IMG/VR virus record: IMGVR_UViG_3300031227_011131
Source: a virus
Lineage: Duplodnaviria; Heunggongvirae; Uroviricota; Caudoviricetes
Length of the DNA: 64,000 bases
Reading direction: 5' to 3' (one strand)
The notes under the pieces were generated by a model, which did not search any database, was not told the DNA's origin, and was given only the letters and a program-made list of their open reading frames with translations. Positions within the stretch are counted from its first letter, which is position 1. Every line of letters begins with the position of its first letter. The position numbers were made by a program, and so were the translations under genes. Positions 2,738-23,822 of the stretch are shown one piece after another.

Positions 2738-3036
2738 GCAGAAGGCAGTCATTGTGGGGGTTTTTGTTTGAGGAGGTCTGGGTGATTTTCACTATTGGTA
2801 TATGATTCAGGAGTTTTTTACAGGAGTTGGAAGTGAAAGTCATCACTGCTGTAGAACCAATTTATGTGCATGGCGAATCAACGGCTTTTCTTGCTGGTGG
2901 GATTACAAATCCGAAATGGCAGGATGAACTTATTGAGCTTTTGTCACTAAAGTGGCATTTTGTTTAATCCGAGGCGTGAGAATTTATCAATGATCCAAAT
3001 GCTTCACAGGAACAGATTGAGTGGGAATTCAATGCC

Positions 3037-3381
3037 TTGGCGAAGCCGGATGTGTTTAGCATGTGGTTTTCCAATGCTGATTCAGATCAACTGATTTGCA
3101 TGTATGAACTGGGAAGACATTTAGCGTTGTATGCCGAACGAGACGCTTTGCAATTTGTGGTAATTGGCGTGGAGCCGGGTTATCGTCGTGAGCAAGATGT
3201 TCGGATTCAGACAAAACTTGTTTCTGCTTTTCTTGCTAATAGGATTAGTTCAAGTCTTGCTGACCATGCTATCAACATTGCTAAGGCGTTGGAACTTGCC
3301 ACCGATCAGAAATTGGATAGCATTTGTATAGCATTTGGAAAACAATTTGAGAAATTTTGTAATTTTCCCATCACAAGGTGA
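3037..3381 (+). CDS. hypothetical protein
   Basis: 114 aa ORF. Confidence 0.3.
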   Translation: MAKPDVFSMWFSNADSDQLICMYELGRHLALYAERDALQFVVIGVEPGYRREQDVRIQTKLVSAFLANRISSSLADHAINIAKALELATDQKLDSICIAFGKQFEKFCNFPITR

Positions 3382-3412
3382 TATAGATGTAGTGATTGAC
3401 AATTGAAATAAG

Positions 3413-3486
3413 GGGAGCGTGACGGAACTGGCATACGTGGTCGGCTCAAACCCGGCATTTTGTGGGTTCGACTCCCACCGCTCCTA
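3413..3486 (+). tRNA. tRNA, anticodon read by eye as CAA, but class I (short variable arm), atypical
   Basis: Acceptor GGGAGCG/CGCTCCT, T-arm GTGGG-TTCGACT-CCCAC, anticodon stem GTCGG/CCGGC with loop CTCAAAC. The D-stem is only 3 bp. No CCA encoded. Confidence 0.45.
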
Positions 3487-3553
3487 TAATTCATCACATT
3501 TAGTGATGTGGATTGAAACAAAGGGTGAAAAATCCAGGACATTCTATCTTTTC

Positions 3554-3626
3554 CGGGGTCGCTTAATCGGTATGGTACTCGATTATTTTAGGATAGTATG
3601 GGTTCGAATCCTTCCCGGCCCACCAT
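3554..3626 (+). other. tRNA-like element (T-loop GGTTCGAATCC plus terminal CCACCA); cloverleaf not resolvable by eye, possibly a degenerate or pseudo-tRNA
   Basis: Canonical T-loop and a 3' CCA are present, but I could not pair an acceptor stem. Confidence 0.3.
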
Positions 3627-3838
3627 TTTGTGTTTATGAGTATAGTTCCGTGTGTGACAAAAGTTGCAGGTAGCGGGCACTGCGAGGGTTGGGAATTCAA
3701 AAAGCAGAGATTCCCATAAAAAAGGATGTAATTGGGGTGTTAACCAGAATGCTTGGGTTATATTCAGCCCAGTAAGTAGGTCGGTAATTAGTCCGACTAA
3801 CATTGCGGGGGCATCGTCCCTCACACACGGAACTTTTT

Positions 3839-3911
3839 GCCCCAGTGGCCTAATGGATAGGGCATCCGGCTTCTAACCGGATTTGTGCGGGTTCAAATCC
3901 TGCCTGGGGTA
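3839..3911 (+). tRNA. tRNA-Arg (anticodon UCU)
   Basis: Acceptor GCCCCAG/CTGGGGT, D-arm GCCT-AATGGATA-GGGC, anticodon arm TCCGG-CTTCTAA-CCGGA, T-arm GCGGG-TTCAAAT-CCTGC. Confidence 0.7.
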
Positions 3912-3916
3912 TTTTA

Positions 3917-4025
3917 CCCCTTGGAATGCTTTGGTGAAGGTTCGATTCCTTCCGTGGGGCCAGCATACTTGCCCAGTAGGCCAATTGGATAAGTCGCCTG
4001 GCTTCGAATCCGGGGTCGCCCATCA
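3917..4025 (+). other. two tRNA-like remnants: a T-arm/acceptor minihelix (3917-3960) and a tRNA-like element with T-loop CTTCGAAT (3961-4025)
   Basis: The first has GAAGG-TTCGATT-CCTTC followed by CGTGGGG, pairing with upstream CCCCTTG. The second has GGCTTCGAATCC followed by GGGGTCGCCCA. Neither gives a full cloverleaf. Confidence 0.25.
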
Positions 4026-8542: not shown

Positions 8543-9658
8543 ATGATGTTGGCGATACAACGATATTTACGAGCAAACTCACTACAAGCCGCAGTTGACG
8601 AGTGGGCTTTCCGTGTACAAGAGCATGGCAGTCTTGTACAATTGAACTACTCTAGCGATTCCTCTTTAGGCGTTCAAGAGATTGAGGAATGTCGTGGCCT
8701 GATACTGTCCAAGCCTGATTGGGATGTCGTAGCGTATCCGTTCTATCGCTTCTACAATGAAGGCGAATCGTATGCGGCATGTCCCGACTTATCATCGTCT
8801 GTACTGCTTGAGAAGCTTGACGGCTCATTGATAACTCTGTATTGGAATCCAGAGTTGAAGGATTGGTGTGTTGCCACTCGCGGTACAATTCTGGCTGACG
8901 CAACATCAAACTGGAAGAAGTTATCGTTTCAAAGTTTGTTTTGGCAAGCAGTTCGGAAGTATTTGGATGTCGATTTTGAGCGACTTCCGAAGACTGTCAA
9001 CTTGATGTTTGAGCTTATTGGCCCGGACAACCGCGTGTTGACTTGGTATCCAGAAGCCGACTTGCGATTGTTGGCGGCCCGTGACTTGACAACTTTGGAA
9101 GAATTGGACGATGAGGAACTGGACGGATTGTCTGGACTATTAGGCATTCCGCGTCCGAAGGTATTCTCATTTTTTTCTCGTGAGGATGTGTTGGCATTAC
9201 TTGACACATTGGACGAAAAGGATGAAGGTTTTGTTCTGGTTGACTATGACCACAAGAAAGATGGCAACTTTCTGCGCATCAAAGTAAAGAACAAGCGTTA
9301 CTTGGAATTGGCTTATCGTCTACATGCGGGGCAATTGAGCATACTGACTCCAAAGAACATCATTCGTATGATTCGTTCTGACGAAGTAGATGAGATGCTT
9401 GCCTATTTCCCCGAGTTCGGCTCGGACGTTGATTCGGTACGTCAAAAGCTGGGAGACTTGGCGGCTCAAATAGACCGAGATTTTGAGTCTGTCAAGCATT
9501 TGGGAATTGACCGTAAGGAATTAGCGAAGATTGTTGGCAAGATGGTTTGTCCAAAAGCCATATTCTGGCTATTGGATGGCAAGCTACAATCAGGTCGTCA
9601 ATTTTTGATGACTTGCTTTGAGAAAACTTTGTTTCGATTGCTGGGATTTTTCAGCTAA
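8543..9658 (+). CDS. ATP-dependent RNA ligase, T4 Rnl1-like
   Basis: Nucleotidyltransferase motif I EKLDGSL (KxDGSL as in T4 Rnl1). 371 aa, consistent with Rnl1 size. Confidence 0.6.
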   Translation: MMLAIQRYLRANSLQAAVDEWAFRVQEHGSLVQLNYSSDSSLGVQEIEECRGLILSKPDWDVVAYPFYRFYNEGESYAACPDLSSSVLLEKLDGSLITLYWNPELKDWCVATRGTILADATSNWKKLSFQSLFWQAVRKYLDVDFERLPKTVNLMFELIGPDNRVLTWYPEADLRLLAARDLTTLEELDDEELDGLSGLLGIPRPKVFSFFSREDVLALLDTLDEKDEGFVLVDYDHKKDGNFLRIKVKNKRYLELAYRLHAGQLSILTPKNIIRMIRSDEVDEMLAYFPEFGSDVDSVRQKLGDLAAQIDRDFESVKHLGIDRKELAKIVGKMVCPKAIFWLLDGKLQSGRQFLMTCFEKTLFRLLGFFS

Positions 9659-9672
9659 TTTTTCGCTATAAT

Positions 9673-9683
9673 GGTGATATAGA
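9673..9683 (+). promoter_or_regulatory. extended -10-like element GGTGATATAGA upstream of tRNA-Ile
   Basis: Member of the GGTGATATAAT motif family. Confidence 0.35.
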
Positions 9684-9771
9684 GATAGGCATTCCAATTT
9701 TTCAGCATGAATGTCGTTATGGCGAAGATACGGCTAATACTGTGATTATTTGCAGGGCAATTGTGGTTTGG

Positions 9772-9844
9772 AGGGACGTAGCTCAGCAGGAAGAGCAAAC
9801 GACTGATAATCGTTAGGTCGGAGGTTCAAATCCTCCCGTCCCGA
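9772..9844 (+). tRNA. tRNA-Ile (anticodon GAU)
   Basis: D-arm GCTC-AGCAGGAA-GAGC, anticodon arm AACGA-CTGATAA-TCGTT, T-arm GGAGG-TTCAAAT-CCTCC, acceptor (A)GGGACG/CGTCCCG. Followed by TTTTT. Confidence 0.65.
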
Positions 9845-9872
9845 TTTTTCTTGACGTTAGTGGGCAATGTCG

Positions 9873-9985
9873 GCTTAGTCAATAATCAACATTTTGGGCA
9901 GAAAAGATGATTTTTACGAGAAAAAATTCTGGCATAGGTGATATAGTAAGTAGAGAAAGTTTGAAAGTGGCCAAAGGAGATTACA
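9873..9985 (+). repeat. direct repeat copy 1 (about 95 bp), containing the promoter-like GGTGATATAGT and GAAAGTTTGAAAGTGG
   Basis: Near-identical to 10866-10968. The two copies flank the GC-rich ORF. Confidence 0.8.
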
Positions 9986-10852
9986 ATGAACACCGACATC
10001 GTATACGCCGCAGTCGGCAAAACCACACACCTTGGCAGCACACTGGCCGAAGCCAAAACCAAAGCCGCCGAAGCCGGCGATACGCCCACAATCAGCGGTC
10101 GCGTTTGGTGGGCATGGGTTGGCGCTGGGGCAGACCCGAAACCCGCAAGAGGGCCATACCCGACCTTGGCCGATGCCGACGTTGCCCTATCGACATTTCG
10201 TGCACGGCATGGCGCCCTGGCCGGCACATACGAAGCTGCGGGCAGGATAGGGCTTCGAGGATGCATCGGACGAGAGCACTGCCGGAAGTACGCTGATGTT
10301 TCAAGGCTAGGCGATGTAATGCGGGAACAGGTCGAGAAAAAAGACCGGGAACAGGTCGAGAAAAAAGAAATGGACGTAAACACTCCCATAGGACAAGTCA
10401 AAGTCGATGAAGTCGAGGTCAACGAAGATGGTGCTTATCCCTCCGGTTGGATCAACGCCTCCATCCTGGTAGGAGACAAAGAACACTTTACCGGGGCCTC
10501 GTGGTCGTACGACAGCCCCAGCGTAGACTATTACCGAAAACAACGCATGCCCGCCCCGCGTCTCGAAATCAAGGTGTACGGCTACGACGACCACGAACCC
10601 TCCAATGAGACGATCATGAAGGCCATTTGCGAGGCAGGGCTAGAAGATAGCGATCTCGCGGACGACATCATCACCGCAGTCCGGGATGCTTGCCGCGACG
10701 CGGTGTATAATGCTCGTGAGTCTGTTTGCTGTCTCAGTATTGCAAAACACTTGCTAACCCGCGCAGCAGACCGTATGCGCCTCCTGGAGCTACTACAAGA
10801 CGAAATTGCCGATCTCGTATACGGTGACACGATAGCGGCACATTTTTCGTAA
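9986..10852 (+). CDS. hypothetical protein encoded by a GC-rich (about 60% GC) insert, i.e. a moron
   Basis: 288 aa. Codon usage and GC differ strongly from neighbours. Contains a 24 bp tandem duplication (REQVEKKD x2) at about 10321-10368. Confidence 0.5.
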   Translation: MNTDIVYAAVGKTTHLGSTLAEAKTKAAEAGDTPTISGRVWWAWVGAGADPKPARGPYPTLADADVALSTFRARHGALAGTYEAAGRIGLRGCIGREHCRKYADVSRLGDVMREQVEKKDREQVEKKEMDVNTPIGQVKVDEVEVNEDGAYPSGWINASILVGDKEHFTGASWSYDSPSVDYYRKQRMPAPRLEIKVYGYDDHEPSNETIMKAICEAGLEDSDLADDIITAVRDACRDAVYNARESVCCLSIAKHLLTRAADRMRLLELLQDEIADLVYGDTIAAHFS

Positions 10853-10865
10853 GCCCACTTTTCCC

Positions 10866-10968
10866 TTTATCAACATTTTGGGCAGAAAAGATGATTTTTA
10901 CGAGAAAAAATTCTGGCATAGGTGATATAGTAAGTAGAGAAAGTTTGAAAGTTTGAAAGTGGCCAATA
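10866..10968 (+). repeat. direct repeat copy 2 (GAAAGTTT unit triplicated instead of duplicated)
   Basis: Same about 95 bp sequence as 9873-9985. Confidence 0.8.
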
Positions 10969-10981
10969 ATGGAGATGTCTG

Positions 10982-11404
10982 ATGAGAATAACAGAACTGA
11001 CCAAGCAGGAAATAGTGGAGAGAAAGGCAATGGCAATGGCAATGTTGGAAGTTTTGGATGATTATGATTGGGGTGAGGTGTTTGCGTTTTCGGGCGGTGA
11101 AGGTTTTGGGAGTGTTGGGGACATTAGAGAGGCCATTCCGGGGCAGAACATAATTCTTGGTCCCTTTGGTCGGGCGGATGTATCCGAAATCATAGCAATG
11201 TCTCCTGGGCAAAATGATAGAGAGAGTTGGATGGTTTGTGGCGGTCTCAATGACGGTTGTTGGTTTTTCATAGAGGCTGGTTGCTGCTACACTGGTTGGG
11301 ATTGTCAGGCCTACGGCAGCACTACGATTGCCAGGACTAAGGCGGAGCTAATTAGGTTTGGGCTAACGAAGGATGCTCGGGAGCGAATGGGTTTGGAGCT
11401 ATAG
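10982..11404 (+). CDS. hypothetical protein
   Basis: 140 aa ORF after the second repeat copy. Confidence 0.4.
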   Translation: MRITELTKQEIVERKAMAMAMLEVLDDYDWGEVFAFSGGEGFGSVGDIREAIPGQNIILGPFGRADVSEIIAMSPGQNDRESWMVCGGLNDGCWFFIEAGCCYTGWDCQAYGSTTIARTKAELIRFGLTKDARERMGLEL

Positions 11405-11418
11405 GAAAGGCGTGTTGG

Positions 11419-11490
11419 TGCCTGGTGGTGTAATTGGTAACACACCAGATTTTGATTCTGGCATTCCAGGTTCAAGTCCTGGCCGGGCAA
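11419..11490 (+). tRNA. tRNA-Gln (anticodon UUG)
   Basis: U1:A72 acceptor TGCCTGG/CCGGGCA, D-arm GTGT-AATTGGTA-ACAC, anticodon arm CCAGA-TTTTGAT-TCTGG, T-arm CCAGG-TTCAAGT-CCTGG. Confidence 0.7.
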
Positions 11491-11590
11491 TTTTGCATTG
11501 AAGTTGATATAAGAGTGTAGTTGATTAGTTGAGTCAACGACGTAACGGTTTCAATGGCTGTGTAGTACAAACGAAAAGAATGGAGTTGTC

Positions 11591-11914
11591 GTGATGACAT
11601 TGGATGAGGCTCTGAAAAACGAAGCTGTTTTTGGACTGTTGTTTGCTGATTTCATCGAACGTGGTGGAAGTCTGGATGAGCTTGTCGAGGACAATCTCAA
11701 TTTGAGTTTTGGGGATGTTTTTGAGAGTTTGTCTTCATGGCTGACCCAGAATGATATAGAAGTTCTCATGACCGGTGATGAAATCAACAAAATCATCAGT
11801 TGCGTTTTTGTTTTTAGTTCTCTAAAGCAGATGGAGCGAGACGGGAAGGCTGTCTGTAATGACGGCAAGTGGATTCTGACGGACAAGGGAAAAGAGGAAG
11901 ATTGTCCGAATTGA
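11591..11914 (+). CDS. hypothetical acidic protein
   Basis: 107 aa ORF. Confidence 0.35.
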   Translation: MMTLDEALKNEAVFGLLFADFIERGGSLDELVEDNLNLSFGDVFESLSSWLTQNDIEVLMTGDEINKIISCVFVFSSLKQMERDGKAVCNDGKWILTDKGKEEDCPN

Positions 11915-11920
11915 TTTAAT

Positions 11921-12014
11921 GGATAGGTGGCCGAGTTTGGTCTAAGGCTCTGGTTTCGAAAATCAGTAGGCGGTGTCAAACACTGTCTCGTGGGTTCAAA
12001 TCCCACCCTATCCG
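11921..12014 (+). tRNA. tRNA-Ser (anticodon CGA), class II with a long variable arm
   Basis: Acceptor GGATAGG/CCTATCC, anticodon arm CTGGT-TTCGAAA-ATCAG, T-arm GTGGG-TTCAAAT-CCCAC. Confidence 0.65.
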
Positions 12015-12076
12015 TCAATGGTGGAGTTGTCTAAGAGGCTATTTGGTTTAGCAAGCAATTCAAAAAAGGGAACACA

Positions 12077-12517
12077 ATGAAGCCGAAGTTAGTCAAGGGC
12101 AACATTTTTGACACAGGATGTCAGTGGATTGGTCATGGCGTTAATTGTGTTGGCGTTATGGGTGCTGGTATTGCATTACAGGTTCGCCGCAGGTATCCGT
12201 ATTCTTTCACGGTTTACCAACAGGTCATTCATGACACTGGTTTAGTTCCGGGGCAGAACATTTATGTTGTAGAGAATCCTCATTCGATATGTCACATGGC
12301 GACACAACCTAGGCCTGGGAGATTTGCTTGTCTTGAACTTGTTGAGATGTGTATTAGTGAGTTTATTCAAGAATACAACGAAGTGGGTGTTTCACTTGCT
12401 TTGCCGCGTATTGGTTGTGGCATAGGCGGCTTGAATTGGGAAGATGTATCACAGTTATTGGAAAAGCTGTTTACGCCCACTGCTATTGAGGTTGAGTTTT
12501 GGACGTATATGTTGTAA
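12077..12517 (+). CDS. macro-domain protein (ADP-ribose binding or hydrolase)
   Basis: GNIFD ... HGVNCVGVMGAGIALQV is the macro-domain signature. Confidence 0.7.
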   Translation: MKPKLVKGNIFDTGCQWIGHGVNCVGVMGAGIALQVRRRYPYSFTVYQQVIHDTGLVPGQNIYVVENPHSICHMATQPRPGRFACLELVEMCISEFIQEYNEVGVSLALPRIGCGIGGLNWEDVSQLLEKLFTPTAIEVEFWTYML

Positions 12518-12568
12518 GAGATATGGCTCAAAGTAGATTTAGGCAAGAGATGAAAGGCAAGGTTTGCA

Positions 12569-13792
12569 ATGCAGGTTATCAATGACAATGGAAATTTGAT
12601 TAAGGCTTGGATTGACGGTGTTTCCGTTGAAGATGGGGCTGTTGCGCAGTTGAAGAAGTGTGCTCAGATGCCTTTCATTTTCAAGCATGTAGCTGCAATG
12701 CCAGATGCTCATGTGGGAATGGGCGCTTGTATTGGTAGCGTAATTCCTACTATCGGTGCTGTTATGCCTTCGGCTGTTGGCGTTGACATTGGGTGTGGAA
12801 TGGCTGCGGTAAGAACTACGCTTACCGAGTCTGACATTCCAGAGGCAATCAGACCCGATGTACGTTTTGCTATCGAAAATGCAATTCCAGCGGGCCGTTC
12901 GCATAACGGTGGCAAGGGCGACATTGGAGCCTGGGATAAGTTGCCAACTGTTGTAGAAGCCATTTGGCTTGACGAGCTTGCAGAGGACTACGACAAGATT
13001 ACTGAGAAGCACAGGGGAGCTAAGGGATACAACGATGTAAACCAACTTGGTACGCTTGGGACGGGCAATCACTTCATTGAGATTTGTTTGGACAAGGACA
13101 ACCGAGTATGGTTCATGTTGCATTCTGGTTCTCGTGGTTGCGGAAACAGAATTGGCAGCTATTTCATCAAGTTTGCAAAAGAGCTTTGCAATAAGTGGTT
13201 TATCAATTTGCCTGATTCTGATTTGGCTTATTTTCCACAGCGCACTGAAGAATTTTCAGATTACATGTTTGCGGTTGGCTGGGCGCAGAAGTTTGCCAGG
13301 TTGAATCGTGATTTAATGATGCAGTCTCTTGTTGACGCTATCAGGGGAGTGACATCTGTTCCTGAGTTTGAGTTTGAAGGCGATGTAGTCGATTGTCATC
13401 ACAACTATGTTGCTTTTGAGAATCATTTTGGCAAGAATATATTAGTAACTCGCAAAGGTGCAATTCGTGCTCGCAAGGATGAGCTTGCTATTATTCCTGG
13501 TAGTATGGGCACGCGCTCGTACATTGTGCGAGGTCTTGGCAATAGGGACAGTTTTTGCAGTGCTTCGCATGGTGCTGGTCGTTGTATGTCACGAACCCGG
13601 GCGCGCAAAACGATCACGGTAGATCAGCATGTTGCGGCTACAAAGGGTGTTGAGTGCGTTAAGGATAAGACTGTATTGGACGAATCACCTTTGGCGTATA
13701 AGGATATTGACAAGGTAATTGAAGCTGAACGGGATTTGGTAGAGCCTGTTCATACCTTACGTCAGATAATTTGCGTCAAAGGAATTGGATAA
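12569..13792 (+). CDS. rtcB: RtcB RNA ligase (3'-phosphate/5'-hydroxyl RNA ligase)
   Basis: 407 aa. Metal-ligand blocks AMPDAHVGMG, GCGMAAV, GTGNHFIE, HSGSRG and HNY are all present in RtcB order. Confidence 0.85.
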   Translation: MQVINDNGNLIKAWIDGVSVEDGAVAQLKKCAQMPFIFKHVAAMPDAHVGMGACIGSVIPTIGAVMPSAVGVDIGCGMAAVRTTLTESDIPEAIRPDVRFAIENAIPAGRSHNGGKGDIGAWDKLPTVVEAIWLDELAEDYDKITEKHRGAKGYNDVNQLGTLGTGNHFIEICLDKDNRVWFMLHSGSRGCGNRIGSYFIKFAKELCNKWFINLPDSDLAYFPQRTEEFSDYMFAVGWAQKFARLNRDLMMQSLVDAIRGVTSVPEFEFEGDVVDCHHNYVAFENHFGKNILVTRKGAIRARKDELAIIPGSMGTRSYIVRGLGNRDSFCSASHGAGRCMSRTRARKTITVDQHVAATKGVECVKDKTVLDESPLAYKDIDKVIEAERDLVEPVHTLRQIICVKGIG

Positions 13793-13830
13793 AAGGACGC
13801 AAAAAGGACGCAAAAAGGACGCAAAAAATT
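13793..13830. repeat. tandem repeat (AAAAGGACGC) x3 just downstream of rtcB
   Basis: Read directly: ggacgcaaaaaggacgcaaaaaggacgcaaaaaa. Confidence 0.7.
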
Positions 13831-13837
13831 GAAAAAA

Positions 13838-13848
13838 GGTGATATAAT
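13838..13848 (+). promoter_or_regulatory. extended -10-like promoter GGTGATATAAT
   Basis: TGnTATAAT consensus, about 100 nt upstream of tRNA-Leu. Followed by a TTGACAATT element. Confidence 0.45.
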
Positions 13849-13952
13849 AGGGAGCACATTTGATTGACAATTAAGTTTTTGCGGGTGTGGTGGAATTGGC
13901 ATACACGATATGCTATTTTGTTGTTTGACAATTGAGTTTGTTATGATATAAT

Positions 13953-14036
13953 GCGGGTGTAGCCGAACGGCATAGGCGACGGACTTAAAATCCGTTGGGT
14001 GTAATACCCATGTGGGTTCGAATCCCACCACCCGCA
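13953..14036 (+). tRNA. tRNA-Leu (anticodon UAA), class II
   Basis: Acceptor GCGGGTG/CACCCGC, D-arm GCC-GAACGGCATA-GGC, anticodon arm ACGGA-CTTAAAA-TCCGT, variable arm TGGGTGTAATACCCAT, T-arm GTGGG-TTCGAAT-CCCAC. Confidence 0.75.
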
Positions 14037-14052
14037 TCAGTGAGGAGGAATC

Positions 14053-14823
14053 ATGAAAATTGATAGGAAGGAGTTTGAGAAAGCGTGGAATGGCAATTTG
14101 GCTGTGAGAGAGATACGTAATGCGTTTGGCCTATCGGAAAGGCAAGTTAGGAAGTTCAGGGATGAATACAACTTAAAAAAGCGAAAGAGAGGCGGAGTAC
14201 GGGTTAGCGAGTATCCAAAGACGAGTGAATCTGCCTATTTGCTTGGAGTGGCTTTAGGGGATGGAGATTTAGGAATCGTAGGAAGAACGATTAGGTTGAG
14301 GCTATTTTGTGACATAAAATTTCCATGCTTGATAGACAAGTGGCGTAATACATGTAATGCGGTTTTGGGATGTAATTCAAGTGTTATATCGTGGGGGAAG
14401 AATTGCAAAGCTGTGATGGCATATTCTAAGAAGTTACAAGAGTTTCCATGGAAACCTCGAAAAGGAAGAAAGTGGGAACAAAATGTTCGTATTCCAGATT
14501 GGGTCAAGGATGGTGGGTTCCTGATTGATTGTTTGGTTGGCCTCTTTGAAGCTGATGGTTGCATTTATACTCAACGGGTGAAAGTTGGAAACAGAGTCTA
14601 TGAATACGAAAGGGTGAGTTTTAGCAATTCTGCAGAGTTGCTGATTCGGGATGTGATTGATTTTCTGTTGGATAATGGCATATCACATACAGTTGTTGAG
14701 CGTCCCGTAGGTGGTAAAACGATGATAAATGGAAAACCAGTAGTAAGTAGAACAATCAATTATTACATACAGATTATAGATAGGGATGGGTTTCTTGATT
14801 TAGTGCCGTTTAGTAAGACTTAA
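14053..14823 (+). CDS. LAGLIDADG homing endonuclease (two-motif)
   Basis: Motifs LLGVALGDGDLGIV and LVGLFEADGCIYT. The start is 17 nt after the tRNA-Leu end. Confidence 0.75.
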   Translation: MKIDRKEFEKAWNGNLAVREIRNAFGLSERQVRKFRDEYNLKKRKRGGVRVSEYPKTSESAYLLGVALGDGDLGIVGRTIRLRLFCDIKFPCLIDKWRNTCNAVLGCNSSVISWGKNCKAVMAYSKKLQEFPWKPRKGRKWEQNVRIPDWVKDGGFLIDCLVGLFEADGCIYTQRVKVGNRVYEYERVSFSNSAELLIRDVIDFLLDNGISHTVVERPVGGKTMINGKPVVSRTINYYIQIIDRDGFLDLVPFSKT

Positions 14824-14896
14824 AATCCGTTGGCCCTTTTTGGCTGTGTGGGTTCGAGTCCCACCACCCGCATCAGTGAGGAGGAATCATGAAAAT
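14817..14896 (+). repeat. diverged duplicate of the tRNA-Leu 3' half (from the anticodon loop) plus the downstream RBS and ATGAAAAT
   Basis: GACTTAAAATCCGTTGG ... GTGGGTTCGAGTCCCACCACCCGCATCAGTGAGGAGGAATCATGAAAAT parallels 13982-14060. Confidence 0.65.
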
Positions 14897-15152
14897 GGAT
14901 TTGAATGAGTTGCTGACTGAAGCAAAGAGCAAACTCGGCAAGCAAGAGATGGCCAAGCTTGACCACTTGCTTGAAGACATAGAGAAGGTAGGCGCGAGCG
15001 TTGTCAACTTGGACGATGGCTTGCATTTGAAAGTCAATTGGTGTTTGTATTCTTTGCCTGAGTTTATGGAGGCGTATCGCAGGCATGACAAATGGCCTGA
15101 TCTTTGGATGGAACGCATGCAAAAAATAGGACAATCAGTGCCTATTCATTGA
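14889..15152 (+). CDS. hypothetical protein
   Basis: 87 aa. Its start region is duplicated at the start of the homing-endonuclease ORF. Confidence 0.4.
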   Translation: MKMDLNELLTEAKSKLGKQEMAKLDHLLEDIEKVGASVVNLDDGLHLKVNWCLYSLPEFMEAYRRHDKWPDLWMERMQKIGQSVPIH

Positions 15153-15343
15153 GTGGAGATGTTATGGGTTATCGGAGGTGCAAGTGTGGGGCGTGTATGG
15201 AACATCTTTTGGTAGAGGGTACAAACGAAGAGTGTGTTTTTTGGTGTCCAGAATGTGGCAGGGCGTTGTGTATGTTACAAGAGGAAACAGCTTGGCACGA
15301 GCCAAGTTGTATAAAGCAAGAGGACGAATTGGGTAAAAAATAG
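15104..15343 (+). CDS. zinc-ribbon protein (CxxC ... CPECG)
   Basis: 79 aa with two CxxC pairs. Confidence 0.35.
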   Translation: MDGTHAKNRTISAYSLSGDVMGYRRCKCGACMEHLLVEGTNEECVFWCPECGRALCMLQEETAWHEPSCIKQEDELGKK

Positions 15344-23418: not shown

Positions 23419-23434
23419 AGAATTGGATAGGTGG

Positions 23435-23518
23435 CTGAGTTTGGTCTAAGGCTCTGGTTTCGAAAATCAGTAGGCGGTGTCAAACACTGTCTCGTGGGTT
23501 CAAATCCCACCCTATCCG
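23435..23518 (+). tRNA. tRNA-Ser (anticodon CGA), second copy
   Basis: Identical to 11921-12014 except for 1 nt (GCCGAG vs GCTGAG). The duplication extends a few nt on each side. Confidence 0.65.
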
Positions 23519-23822
23519 CCAATGGAACAATGACGAATCCTGAATTAAGATAATGCCCCGCTCTTGGTATTTACATCAGAACCGCTTAGAATTCTGCCAG
23601 ACGCACATTCTCGCCTTACTAAATGTCTTGTCTTATTGACGAGTTTTGCAAACTTGTCTATTTGTACGTCGAATTTTGTCACAATTTTCTTATAGTTGGC
23701 CTTATGGGGTAGGGTTGGCCCGATTCACGTGAGAGTTGGGTCTGGATATTTAGCTATATTTTTTTGATATTTGCATCTTAGTGAGGGGATAGCAATGCGC
23801 ATTAGATTTTGAAAAGGGGATT

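What the first reader, a model, noticed from the sequence alone, without database searches (positions are those of the whole stretch)
13953..14896. LAGLIDADG homing-endonuclease gene wedged against tRNA-Leu(UAA), flanked by a duplicated tRNA 3' half
A complete tRNA-Leu(UAA) (13953-14036) is followed 17 nt later by a two-motif LAGLIDADG endonuclease ORF. At the ORF's stop the sequence restarts at GACTTAAAATCCGTTGG, exactly the tRNA's anticodon-loop region. It then runs through a diverged variable arm and T-arm (TTCGAGT vs TTCGAAT), the acceptor 3' strand, the downstream RBS and ATGAAAAT, which is also the first codons of both the endonuclease gene and the next gene. Such an about 80 bp, about 85% identical direct duplication bracketing the endonuclease gene is the footprint of endonuclease invasion with target duplication. 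Alternatively it could mark an intron-like element whose 3' exon is the second copy. tRNA-Leu(UAA) is the classic host of an ancient group I intron, but I see no room for an intron core outside the ORF.
Basis: partly seen in the sequence, partly recalled or inferred. Interest (0 to 1): 0.65.

Follow-up and report, generated by a model that had tools for sequence, protein, structure and literature searches.

The report
Homing cassette splitting a phage tRNA-Leu gene
A selfish DNA cassette (promoter, spare tRNA-Leu gene and LAGLIDADG homing-endonuclease gene) is inserted exactly between nucleotides 27 and 28 of a large phage's own tRNA-Leu(UAA) gene; the same design recurs in distantly related phages, so the element seems to replace the gene it breaks rather than splice itself out.

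Summary
A complete tRNA-Leu(UAA) lies at 13953-14036 and a two-motif LAGLIDADG ORF at 14053-14823. An 80-nt, 86% identical copy of the tRNA 3' part plus RBS plus ATGAAAAT lies at 14817-14896.

At 13881-13908 lies a tRNA-Leu 5' fragment, here called X (nt 1-27). Joined directly to the downstream fragment Z (14815-14872), it gives a full-length class-II tRNA-Leu(UAA). So a resident tRNA gene was split at nt 27|28 by a 906-bp insert: promoter, intact tRNA-Leu (Y) and the endonuclease gene. The endonuclease stop codon is the anticodon TAA of Z.

Three metagenomic loci whose endonucleases are only 42-43% identical show the same X-filler-Y-HEG-Z layout. Their X and Z acceptor halves pair and covary. 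All ten relatives with readable context sit just 3' of a tRNA-Leu gene. The unsplit X|Z sequence occurs in at least 100 viral contigs, none with this endonuclease.

No intron core, integrase or end-pairing was found. Best reading: a non-spliced, self-complementing homing cassette, a new variant of homing elements. Cleavage and mobility are inferred, not shown.

The parts
13840..13848 (+). Extended -10-like element TGATATAAT upstream of the split gene. It is a possible native promoter for the resident tRNA, and now a possible source of read-through into the cassette.
   Evidence: Read directly from the sequence. It has no -35 and was not scored by the promoter tool. Function is inferred.
13860..13878 (+). 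Upstream motif TTGATTGACAATTAAGTTT, just 5' of fragment X. A homologous copy lies inside the insert at 13921-13939.
   Evidence: Direct repeat D3, 89% identical. TTGACAATTRAGTTT has only these two zero-mismatch matches in the window.
13881..13908 (+). X: the 5' fragment (tRNA nt 1-27) of the split resident tRNA-Leu(UAA). It comprises the acceptor 5' strand GCGGGTG, U8, and the D arm GTG-GAATTGGCATA-CAC, followed by G26 and A27.
   Evidence: Only 9 of 128,000 positions in the window pair 7/7 with Z's acceptor strand. Apart from the complete tRNA Y itself, only X among them also has a tRNA D arm. X+Z gives a tRNA-Leu(UAA) cloverleaf. Simple sequence similarity of X to Y is not significant genome-wide on its own.
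13909..13952 (+). Left end of the insert ('filler', 44 nt). It carries a perfect sigma-70 promoter: TTGACA at 13925-13930, a 16-nt spacer with TG, and TATAAT at 13947-13952.
   Evidence: Scored 12/12, and the only perfect match in the 64 kb window. The -10 ends directly against the first base of the tRNA, so the start site would fall inside or at the start of Y. An overlapping TGTTATGAT ends at 13947.
13953..14036 (+). Y: the complete tRNA-Leu(UAA) carried inside the insert, the presumed functional replacement. Compared with X/Z, its D stem is GCC/GGC rather than GTG/CAC and its variable arm is different.
   Evidence: ARAGORN; Rfam tRNA 64.7 bits; cloverleaf comparison.
14037..14052 (+). Spacer with RBS GAGGAGG (14042-14048) for the endonuclease gene. 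The block 14037-14060 is duplicated exactly at 14873-14896.
14053..14823 (+). LAGLIDADG homing-endonuclease gene (256 aa). It has an N-terminal helix-turn-helix-like region and two LAGLIDADG motifs, YLLGVALGDGDL and CLVGLFEADGC. The last three codons, AAG ACT TAA, lie in fragment Z.
14815..14872 (+). Z: the 3' fragment (tRNA nt 28-76) of the split resident tRNA-Leu(UAA). Nt 28-30 read AAG instead of CGG. The anticodon TAA (14821-14823) is the endonuclease stop codon. Z keeps its own variable arm, T arm and acceptor 3' strand CACCCGC.
   Evidence: The homologous junction in L016 reads AAA CGG ACT TAA.
14873..14896 (+). Second copy of TCAGTGAGGAGGAATCATGAAAAT: the RBS (14878-14884) and start codon of the next gene (14889-15152, 87 aa, no known family).

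Best explanation
A mobile unit is inserted precisely between nt 27 and 28 of the phage's resident tRNA-Leu(UAA) gene, at the boundary of the D arm and the anticodon stem. The unit spans window 13909-14814 (906 bp). It consists of a promoter, a complete tRNA-Leu(UAA) gene (Y) and a single-chain LAGLIDADG homing-endonuclease gene (HEG).

The two halves of the broken gene remain as X (13881-13908) and Z (14815-14872).

Inferred mechanism:
- The endonuclease recognises the intact, widely conserved X|Z sequence in tRNA-Leu(UAA) genes of co-infecting phages and cuts near nt 27-30.
- The break is repaired from a cassette-bearing genome, with X and Z (plus any flanking homology) as homology arms.
- This splits the recipient gene and destroys the target site.
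- The element is not removed from the RNA as an intron would be. Instead it supplies its own intact tRNA-Leu. Y differs from the target in the D arm, which may make it uncleavable.
- The endonuclease reading frame runs into Z and is closed by the target's own anticodon, TAA.

Shown here: the anatomy, the exact junction, its recurrence in diverged loci, the covariation of X and Z, the existence of empty sites, and the endonuclease fold and catalytic residues.

Inferred, not shown: cleavage specificity, homing, resistance of Y to cleavage, and which promoter makes the mature tRNA.
For: 1. Anatomy. Joining X directly to Z gives a full-length class-II tRNA-Leu(UAA), with only two mismatches in the anticodon stem. 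With CG restored the cloverleaf is perfect.

2. Recurrence. The same X-filler-Y-HEG-Z order occurs in L016, L015 and L014, whose endonucleases are 42-43% identical to this one.
- In L016, X+Z joins into a perfect tRNA with no base lost or gained.
- L001 keeps X abutting Y.
- L017 has a decayed X, then the HEG, then Z.

3. X and Z belong together. Their acceptor halves pair in 28 of 28 cells, and 4 of 7 pairs show compensatory changes across four loci. Only 5 of 500 shuffles reach this. The Y acceptor stems differ in L014, L015 and L016.

4. Family association. All 10 relatives with readable context lie directly 3' of a tRNA-Leu gene, UAA or CAA.

5. Empty sites. The uninterrupted X|Z junction sequence occurs in at least 100 IMG/VR contigs. 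All 80 checked are intact tRNA-Leu(UAA). No endonuclease relative is found in those 100 loci.

6. The enzyme looks intact. Both catalytic Asp residues are invariant, and the model is confident with a LAGLIDADG fold.

7. The stop codon overlaps the anticodon in the window and in L016. L014, L015 and L013 have homologous ACT/TCT + TGA/TAA/TAG endings.

8. Degenerate copies fit a homing-endonuclease life cycle: an in-frame stop in L009, a ~35-aa stub in L012, and an N-terminal truncation in L015.
Against: - No close relative of this phage lacking the element was found. All other contigs of this phage are at least 99.9% identical and carry the endonuclease gene. Presence/absence is therefore shown only across distant genomes.
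- Within about 11 nt either side of the junction, Y differs from the X|Z target at only two positions. One of those falls within natural target variation, so immunity of Y is uncertain.
- In this window Y's flanks resemble those of X and Z: 17/19 upstream and 24/24 downstream. The other loci lack this, apart from a looser Y/Z 3'-flank resemblance in L014 seen by eye. It calls for an extra step, either gene conversion or capture of Y from an allelic locus.
- The conserved C-terminus (K/R, then T/S/I, then stop) is also present in L020, which has no Z. The overlap of stop codon and anticodon could therefore reflect microhomology-mediated joining that arose repeatedly, rather than one inherited junction.
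- L009, L012, L018 and L020 have tRNA-Leu followed by the endonuclease gene with no visible remnants. The split-gene form is thus not universal in the family.
- The -10 hexamer abuts Y, which is awkward for making a full-length tRNA from that promoter.
Confidence: 0.7

Rival explanations
1. This is an ordinary free-standing endonuclease gene downstream of tRNA-Leu. X and Z are inert debris from one or more aberrant break repairs or local segmental duplications, like the SegB-driven amplification of the tRNA-Tyr+segB unit in phage T6. The unit moves only through homology of the wider flanks ('intronless homing'). X and Z play no part as arms, and the unit is not a defined cassette.
For: - Distant family members are plain tRNA-Leu + endonuclease pairs without remnants: L009, L012, L018 and L020.
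- SegB cuts inside tRNA genes and generates tandem tRNA+HEG repeats through microhomology (PMC13096335; PMC2330249).
- The endonuclease 3' end (AAG ACT TAA) shares ACTTAA with the anticodon loop, which would favour microhomology-mediated joining.
- In this window the flanks of Y and of X/Z are homologous.
Against: - The same junction (27|28) recurs, and filler lengths are similar in four loci (44-54 nt).
- X/Z acceptor covariation shows that separate, already diverged resident genes were hit at the same site.
- In-place duplication cannot explain variable and D arms that differ while keeping compensatory pairing, next to flanks that are near-identical.
Confidence: 0.2
2. This is an intervening sequence removed at the RNA level. 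X and Z are exons of a functional tRNA. They would be joined after the internal tRNA and mRNA are processed out, for example by the RtcB ligase encoded 90 nt upstream.
For: - X+Z is nearly perfect here and perfect in L016.
- RtcB, a macro-domain protein and an Rnl1-like ligase lie just upstream. RtcB is also present in L001.
- In L015 the changes in X's D stem are all transitions that keep G-U pairing.
Against: - No group I or II intron, nor any other Rfam family, matches in the insert.
- The ends of the insert do not pair better than shuffled controls: -6.3 versus -7.2 +/- 1.8 kcal/mol.
- Z is truncated in L014 and L017, decayed in L015 and absent in L001.
- The rebuilt anticodon stem in the window has two mismatches. 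These look like drift towards the endonuclease's own coding sequence (CGG to AAG, Arg to Lys).
- The insert already supplies a complete tRNA with the same anticodon.
- RtcB is about 60% identical to thousands of bacterial homologues and is common in large phages.
Confidence: 0.04
3. This is an integrase-type insertion into a tRNA gene, with attL/attR duplication of the tRNA 3' part as for genomic islands and prophages. Alternatively, the repeat is a chance or assembly artefact.
For: Repeats that begin in the anticodon region and run past the tRNA 3' end are typical of tRNA-targeted integrases. This rests on general knowledge; one example is the tRNA-Leu attB of Cluster J mycobacteriophages (PMC3706429).
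Against: - There is no integrase or other recombinase in the 906-bp insert, whose only credible ORF is the endonuclease gene.
- A separate 5' fragment exists, which integrase insertion does not produce.
- The same sequence was assembled independently in five contigs from different samples.
- The repeat is far beyond chance.
Confidence: 0.01

Closest known systems
Free-standing phage homing endonucleases in tRNA clusters: SegB of T4/T6 (GIY-YIG)
   Same: - A phage endonuclease gene sits beside tRNA genes.
- It cuts inside tRNA genes of related phages.
- It drives preferential inheritance of the tRNA region.
- It can duplicate a tRNA+HEG unit.
(PMC2330249; PMC13096335.)
   Different: - SegB is a GIY-YIG enzyme; this one is a LAGLIDADG enzyme.
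- SegB lies between intact genes and moves by flank homology. Here a resident tRNA gene is physically split at a fixed nucleotide.
- Here the unit carries its own complete tRNA and promoter.
Intron- or intein-encoded LAGLIDADG homing endonucleases, including group I introns in bacterial tRNA genes
   Same: - Precise, conserved insertion site inside a conserved gene.
- Insertion destroys the target site.
- Flanking 'exon' sequence can serve as homology arms.
- The protein fold matches archaeal intron and intein enzymes (I-Tsp061I, PI-SceI, I-AniI).
- The same window also holds intein-borne LAGLIDADG domains.
   Different: - There is no ribozyme or intein and no sign of splicing.
- Known bacterial tRNA introns sit in the anticodon loop, at 33/34 to 36/37 (PMC13011429). 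This site is 27|28.
- Gene function is rescued by a carried spare gene, not by splicing.
Mitochondrial mobile ORF elements that bring a partial copy of the host gene and leave the displaced resident end as a pseudogene
   Same: - An endonuclease ORF travels with a foreign copy of (part of) the gene it interrupts.
- The resident fragment stays downstream as a diverged direct repeat.
- The case I have in mind is Allomyces macrogynus atp6 with ORF360 (Paquin, Laforest and Lang 1994), recalled from memory and not checked here.
- Partial foreign gene replacement in Tremella is mentioned in PMC8393795.
   Different: - Those cases replace only one end of a protein gene, fused in frame.
- Here a complete, separately promoted RNA gene is carried, and both ends of the resident gene survive as fragments.
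- The host here is a phage.
'Fractured genes': split inteins with an endonuclease gene between the gene halves (Dassa et al. 2009, PMC2677866)
   Same: A homing-endonuclease gene sits between the two halves of a gene it has split. The arrangement was found in environmental and phage-like sequences (abstract seen).
   Different: In fractured genes function is restored by protein trans-splicing of the two halves. Here the halves appear to be abandoned and a spare gene does the work.

Membership tests
LAGLIDADG homing endonuclease (single-chain, two-motif) | Two LAGLIDADG motifs, each ending in a conserved acidic residue | tested here: met
   The motifs are YLLGVALGDGDL and CLVGLFEADGC. G69, D70, G71, E166, D168 and G169 are invariant in 8 family members. 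Pfam LAGLIDADG_3 scores 27.8 bits against a cutoff of 22.5.
LAGLIDADG homing endonuclease (single-chain, two-motif) | Two pseudo-symmetric alpha-beta-beta-alpha-beta-beta-alpha domains | tested here: met
   The AlphaFold model has pLDDT 89 and pTM 0.75. Foldseek top hits are I-Tsp061I (E 8e-9, target TM 0.66), I-OnuI, I-AniI, PI-SceI and PI-PfuI.
LAGLIDADG homing endonuclease (single-chain, two-motif) | Site-specific double-strand cleavage of a long (about 20 bp) target, leaving 4-nt 3' overhangs | not testable with these tools
   Requires a cleavage assay on the X|Z sequence.
Homing (site-specific mobile) element | The same precise insertion site in independent genomes | tested here: met
   The junction is at tRNA nt 27|28 in the window, L016 and L015. 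In L014, L001 and L017 it lies a few nucleotides away, with small deletions.
Homing (site-specific mobile) element | Occupied and empty alleles of the target both exist | tested here: inconclusive
   Intact X|Z sites occur in at least 100 viral contigs without the endonuclease. No empty allele was found in a close relative of this phage.
Homing (site-specific mobile) element | The flanking fragments derive from one resident gene per genome, that is, independent invasions | tested here: met
   X and Z acceptor halves pair in 28/28 cells, and 4 of 7 pairs have compensatory changes across loci.
Group I intron in tRNA-Leu(UAA) | Ribozyme core detectable by a covariance model | tested here: not met
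   Rfam gave no intron hit up to E=10 in 13500-15300, or up to E=1 in 1-25000.
Group I intron in tRNA-Leu(UAA) | Insertion in the anticodon loop (classically between nt 34 and 35) | tested here: not met
   The junction is at 27|28. Known bacterial tRNA introns lie at 33/34 to 36/37 (PMC13011429).
Archaeal-type bulge-helix-bulge intron or split tRNA | Pairing between intron ends and exon borders that forms the splice motif | tested here: not met
   Co-folding of the insert ends gives -6.3 kcal/mol, against a shuffled mean of -7.2 +/- 1.8. Fragments are decayed in relatives.
SegB-type free-standing phage endonuclease | GIY-YIG catalytic domain | tested here: not met
   The only Pfam hits are LAGLIDADG_3 and a weak helix-turn-helix.
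Integrase-mediated tRNA-gene island | A tyrosine or serine recombinase within the inserted DNA | tested here: not met
   The only credible ORF in 13909-14814 is the endonuclease gene.

The most novel reading that the evidence does not exclude
This is an undescribed class of homing element. It is a gene-splitting, non-spliced, self-complementing cassette (promoter + replacement tRNA-Leu + LAGLIDADG endonuclease). It homes into nt 27|28 of tRNA-Leu(UAA) genes of large phages and uses the target's anticodon as its own stop codon. In doing so it spreads variant tRNA-Leu alleles between phages. These variants might matter for escape from tRNA-targeting defences, given the adjacent RNA-repair genes.
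Probability: 0.5. Interest if true: 0.75.

Novelty: new variant of a known kind. Interest (0 to 1): 0.62.

Why it matters
Homing endonuclease genes are thought to persist inside essential genes only by hiding in self-splicing introns or inteins, or else by sitting between genes. This locus and its relatives suggest a third strategy: break the gene and bring a working spare.

The case is compact and testable. The target is a 33-nt conserved tRNA sequence, and the enzyme is 256 aa with a confident model.

It also extends the link between phage tRNA genes and homing endonucleases from GIY-YIG SegB to the LAGLIDADG family. Practically, it explains why truncated tRNA pieces can flank intact tRNA genes in phage genomes, which matters for annotation. 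Finally, a new LAGLIDADG specificity for a tRNA sequence could interest meganuclease engineers.

Tried and rejected
- Close relatives of this phage without the endonuclease. Megablast against INPHARED found nothing, and blastn found only RtcB. IMG/VR scans with the protein and with the tRNA 3' half plus RBS were empty. The downstream 87-aa protein exists only in this phage. RtcB is too conserved to act as an anchor.
- Group I or II intron, or any other known RNA. No Rfam hit.
- Bulge-helix-bulge or intron-end pairing. None found.
- Plain sequence similarity of X to Y as proof. It is not significant genome-wide: 17 of 100 shuffles score as well. A first attempt was flawed by my masking. I replaced it with the acceptor-pairing and D-arm test and cross-locus covariation.
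- ARAGORN on chimeras proved permissive: many arbitrary fusions are called tRNA. I therefore rely only on the exact X+Z concatenations and on pairing counts.
- MFE folding of the tRNAs was uninformative.
- A compositional anomaly in the cassette. None: 41.4% GC against 42.7% for the window.
- Derivation from the inteins in the same window. Only weak similarity, 28-31% over 76-131 aa.
- 3' or 5' remnants in L009, L012, L018 and L020. None seen.
- More distant LAGLIDADG hits (L010, L011, L122) are not next to tRNA-Leu.
Full report
**1. What is at the coordinates**

The window is part of a 221,945-bp metagenomic contig. Its genes run almost all on one strand and it carries nine tRNA genes. It also has RtcB, a macro-domain protein and an Rnl1-like RNA ligase, two intein-bearing genes, an SNF2 helicase and a type IB topoisomerase. 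I read it as a large (jumbo-type) phage; this is an inference.

- tRNA-Leu(UAA) lies at 13953-14036.
- A 256-aa ORF lies at 14053-14823, behind a GAGGAGG ribosome-binding site.
- A second copy of the tRNA runs from the anticodon stem to the 3' end, continuing through the RBS and ATGAAAAT, at 14817-14896. Identity is 69/80, or 86%.
- The 24-nt RBS/start block occurs exactly twice in 64 kb, with none expected by chance.
- The stop codon of the ORF is the anticodon TAA of the second copy.

**2. The protein**

- Pfam LAGLIDADG_3 is above its cutoff.
- Both motifs are present with invariant Asp residues across eight family members.
- The AlphaFold model is confident (pLDDT 89).
- Its best structural matches are monomeric LAGLIDADG enzymes from archaeal introns, inteins and organellar introns.
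- About 50 N-terminal residues form a three-helix, helix-turn-helix-like unit.

**3.

Seventy-two nucleotides upstream of the intact tRNA, at 13881-13908, is GCGGGTGTGGTGGAATTGGCATACACGA. I call this fragment X. It comprises an acceptor 5' strand, U8, a class-II D arm, G26 and A27.
- Only nine of 128,000 positions in the window pair 7/7 with the acceptor 3' strand of the downstream fragment, which I call Z. Apart from the complete tRNA Y itself, only X among them also has a D arm.
- Joining 13881-13908 directly to 14815-14872 gives a tRNA-Leu(UAA) of correct length. Its only defects are two mismatches at nt 28-29. With CG restored the cloverleaf is perfect.
- The rebuilt gene differs from the intact tRNA (Y) by compensatory changes: D stem GTG/CAC versus GCC/GGC, and a wholly different variable-arm stem.

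So X+Z is a different allele, not a drifted in-place copy of Y. The DNA between X and Z, 13909-14814 (906 bp), holds four things:
- a 44-nt stretch with the only perfect sigma-70 consensus promoter in the window;
- Y;
- a 16-nt spacer with the RBS;
- the endonuclease gene, minus its last three codons.

**4. Relatives**

The family is small: six representatives below E=1e-30 among 1.8 billion. I fetched every context available.

| Locus | Endonuclease identity to window | Layout |
|---|---|---|
| L016 | 42% | X, 49-nt filler, Y, endonuclease gene ending AAA CGG ACT TAA, then Z. X+Z concatenate into a perfect tRNA-Leu(UAA) with no base missing. |
| L015 | 42% | Same order, with decayed X and Z. 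|
| L014 | 43% | Same order. Z is truncated to T arm plus acceptor. Remnant acceptor halves GCGGATG/CATCCGC pair with each other but not with the internal tRNA (GGGGAGG/CCTCCCT). |
| L001 | 49% | X fragment abuts Y; no Z. |
| L017 | 33% | Complete tRNA-Leu(CAA), a decayed D-arm remnant, the endonuclease gene, then a T-arm/acceptor remnant. |
| L009, L012, L018/L019, L020 | more distant | tRNA-Leu followed at once by the endonuclease gene or its remains; no remnants seen. |

Summary of the relatives:
- All ten loci with readable context have the gene directly 3' of a tRNA-Leu gene.
- Still more distant LAGLIDADG hits do not.
- Across the four loci that keep both X and Z, the acceptor halves pair in 28/28 cells. 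Four of seven pairs show compensatory changes, and 5 of 500 shuffles reach this.
- That covariation can only have arisen while each X+Z gene was whole. Different resident tRNA-Leu genes were therefore interrupted at the same place.

**5. Empty sites**

The 33-nt sequence across the rebuilt junction is GGAATTGGYAKACRCRACGGACTTAAAATCCGT.
- All 80 I checked are intact tRNA-Leu(UAA) genes. The exact L016 joint is the commonest variant.
- None of the 100 loci (944 kb) encodes a relative of the endonuclease.

The presumed target is therefore a common, conserved phage tRNA sequence, as expected for a homing site.

**6. Mechanism (inferred)**

The enzyme recognises the intact D-arm/anticodon-stem region and cuts near nt 27-30. 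Repair from a cassette-bearing genome copies promoter, Y and the endonuclease gene between X and Z. The target is destroyed, and tRNA-Leu(UAA) function is supplied by Y.

The similar filler lengths (44, 47, 49 and 54 nt) fit a defined cassette that spreads through X and Z arms. So do a shared AAAAAAGGAAARTTT motif in the L015 and L016 fillers and the common GA|TAT junction.

The plain tRNA-Leu + endonuclease units in distant relatives suggest an origin. A free-standing transcription unit was once captured in a cut tRNA-Leu gene. The ACTTAA shared by the endonuclease 3' end and the anticodon loop may have helped. L020 has the same ...K-T-stop ending without any Z.

Signs of decay match the usual life cycle of such genes: an in-frame stop in L009, a stub in L012, and a truncation in L015.

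**7. Loose ends in this window**

- Y's flanks resemble those of X and Z: TTGACAATTRAGTTT upstream and 24/24 nt downstream. The other loci lack this, apart from a looser Y/Z 3'-flank resemblance in L014 seen by eye. Either Y was captured from an allelic locus of a related phage, or gene conversion has homogenised the repeats.
- Near the junction Y differs from the target at only two positions. Its resistance to cleavage is unproven.
- The -10 hexamer ends directly against the first base of Y. An overlapping TGTTATGAT could start transcription at the first base of the tRNA. An extended -10 at 13840-13848 could drive read-through. Which of these makes mature Y is unknown.
- The 80-bp repeats would allow loss of the endonuclease gene by recombination. 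No such variant was seen.

**8. Alternatives**

- A spliced intervening sequence is unlikely. There is no ribozyme and no end-pairing. Fragments are decayed in relatives, and a complete tRNA already sits in the insert.
- An integrase footprint is excluded by content.
- The serious rival is that X and Z are mere debris of aberrant repair around an ordinary free-standing endonuclease gene, comparable to SegB-driven duplications (PMC13096335). The fixed junction, similar filler lengths and X/Z covariation argue for a defined, repeatedly inserted element. Only cleavage and homing assays can settle it.

**9. Comparison and novelty**

| Known system | How this differs |
|---|---|
| SegB (PMC2330249; PMC13096335) | Different enzyme family; here the resident gene is split. 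|
| tRNA group I introns (PMC13011429) | Different insertion site; no ribozyme here. |
| Split-intein 'fractured genes' (PMC2677866) | Function is rescued here by a spare gene, not by trans-splicing. |
| Mitochondrial elements that bring a partial gene copy (Allomyces atp6, from memory; Tremella, PMC8393795) | Closest in logic, but they replace only one end of a protein gene. |

I found no description of this arrangement in six literature searches. I rate it a new variant of a known kind.

Noticed in passing
window 49779-52688 and 56720-61069: Two long ORFs carry intein splicing, Hint and LAGLIDADG_3 domains. The second may hold two inteins, with Hint hits near residues 167-198 and 617-1019. 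The phage therefore hosts several LAGLIDADG-type mobile elements. The free-standing enzyme is only weakly similar to them (28-31% over 76-131 aa).
   Followed up: partly
window 11920-12016 and 23425-23521: tRNA-Ser(CGA) is present twice, 11.5 kb apart. The two copies are nearly identical through the tRNA and a few 3' bases, but their flanks are unrelated. This may be another mobile or duplicated tRNA unit.
   Followed up: partly
window 8543-13792: An RNA-repair cluster lies just upstream of the finding: an Rnl1-like RNA ligase (phrog_562, 8543-9658), a macro-domain protein (12077-12517) and RtcB (12569-13792). They are interleaved with tRNA-Ile, tRNA-Gln and tRNA-Ser genes. This suggests pressure from tRNA-cleaving host defences.
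   Followed up: partly
window 13791-13827: There are three exact tandem copies of an 11-nt unit, AAAAGGACGCA, between the RtcB stop codon and an extended -10-like TGATATAAT (13840-13848). Function unknown; possibly a protein-binding array.
   Followed up: no
window 3396-3486: tRNA-Leu(CAA) is only 74 nt long, with a short variable arm. It has TTGACAATTGAAATA starting 17 nt upstream of the tRNA (11 nt between its TTGACA and the tRNA start), the same spacing as the motif before fragment X.
   Followed up: no
L014 1575-1651 and L015 1723-1797: The internal 'spare' tRNAs of these cassettes carry anticodon UAA but have short variable arms and a class-I-type D arm (GTAGCCCAATYGG.AGAGGC). They may be recruited from another tRNA type, and so would be non-homologous to the endonuclease target.
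   Followed up: no
L015 1648-1675: In the 5' fragment, the 3' strand of the D stem reads TGT where CAC is expected. That is three adjacent transitions, and all keep G-U pairing with GTG. The rebuilt anticodon stem likewise has several G-U pairs. This is odd for neutral decay and remains unexplained.
   Followed up: no
L009 (= L121) 2999-3925: The endonuclease gene here has an in-frame TAG. Just after its stop lies a 19-nt inverted repeat (95% complementary) enclosing 99 nt that look G+C-richer than this A+T-rich genome (by eye). There is no Rfam match. The 249-kb contig is deposited as a 'Nanoarchaeota archaeon' MAG. It may be a mis-binned virus, or use a different genetic code.
   Followed up: partly
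L017 891-1421: An HNH_3-domain ORF lies among a dense tRNA array (Cys, Ser, Leu-GAG, Ser, Ser, His, Tyr, Leu-CAA), upstream of the LAGLIDADG gene. It is a second endonuclease type in the same tRNA cluster.
   Followed up: no
window 52757-54709: An ORF matches the catalytic core of eukaryotic-type DNA topoisomerase I (Pfam Topoisom_I, E 1e-29). This is uncommon in phages.
   Followed up: no
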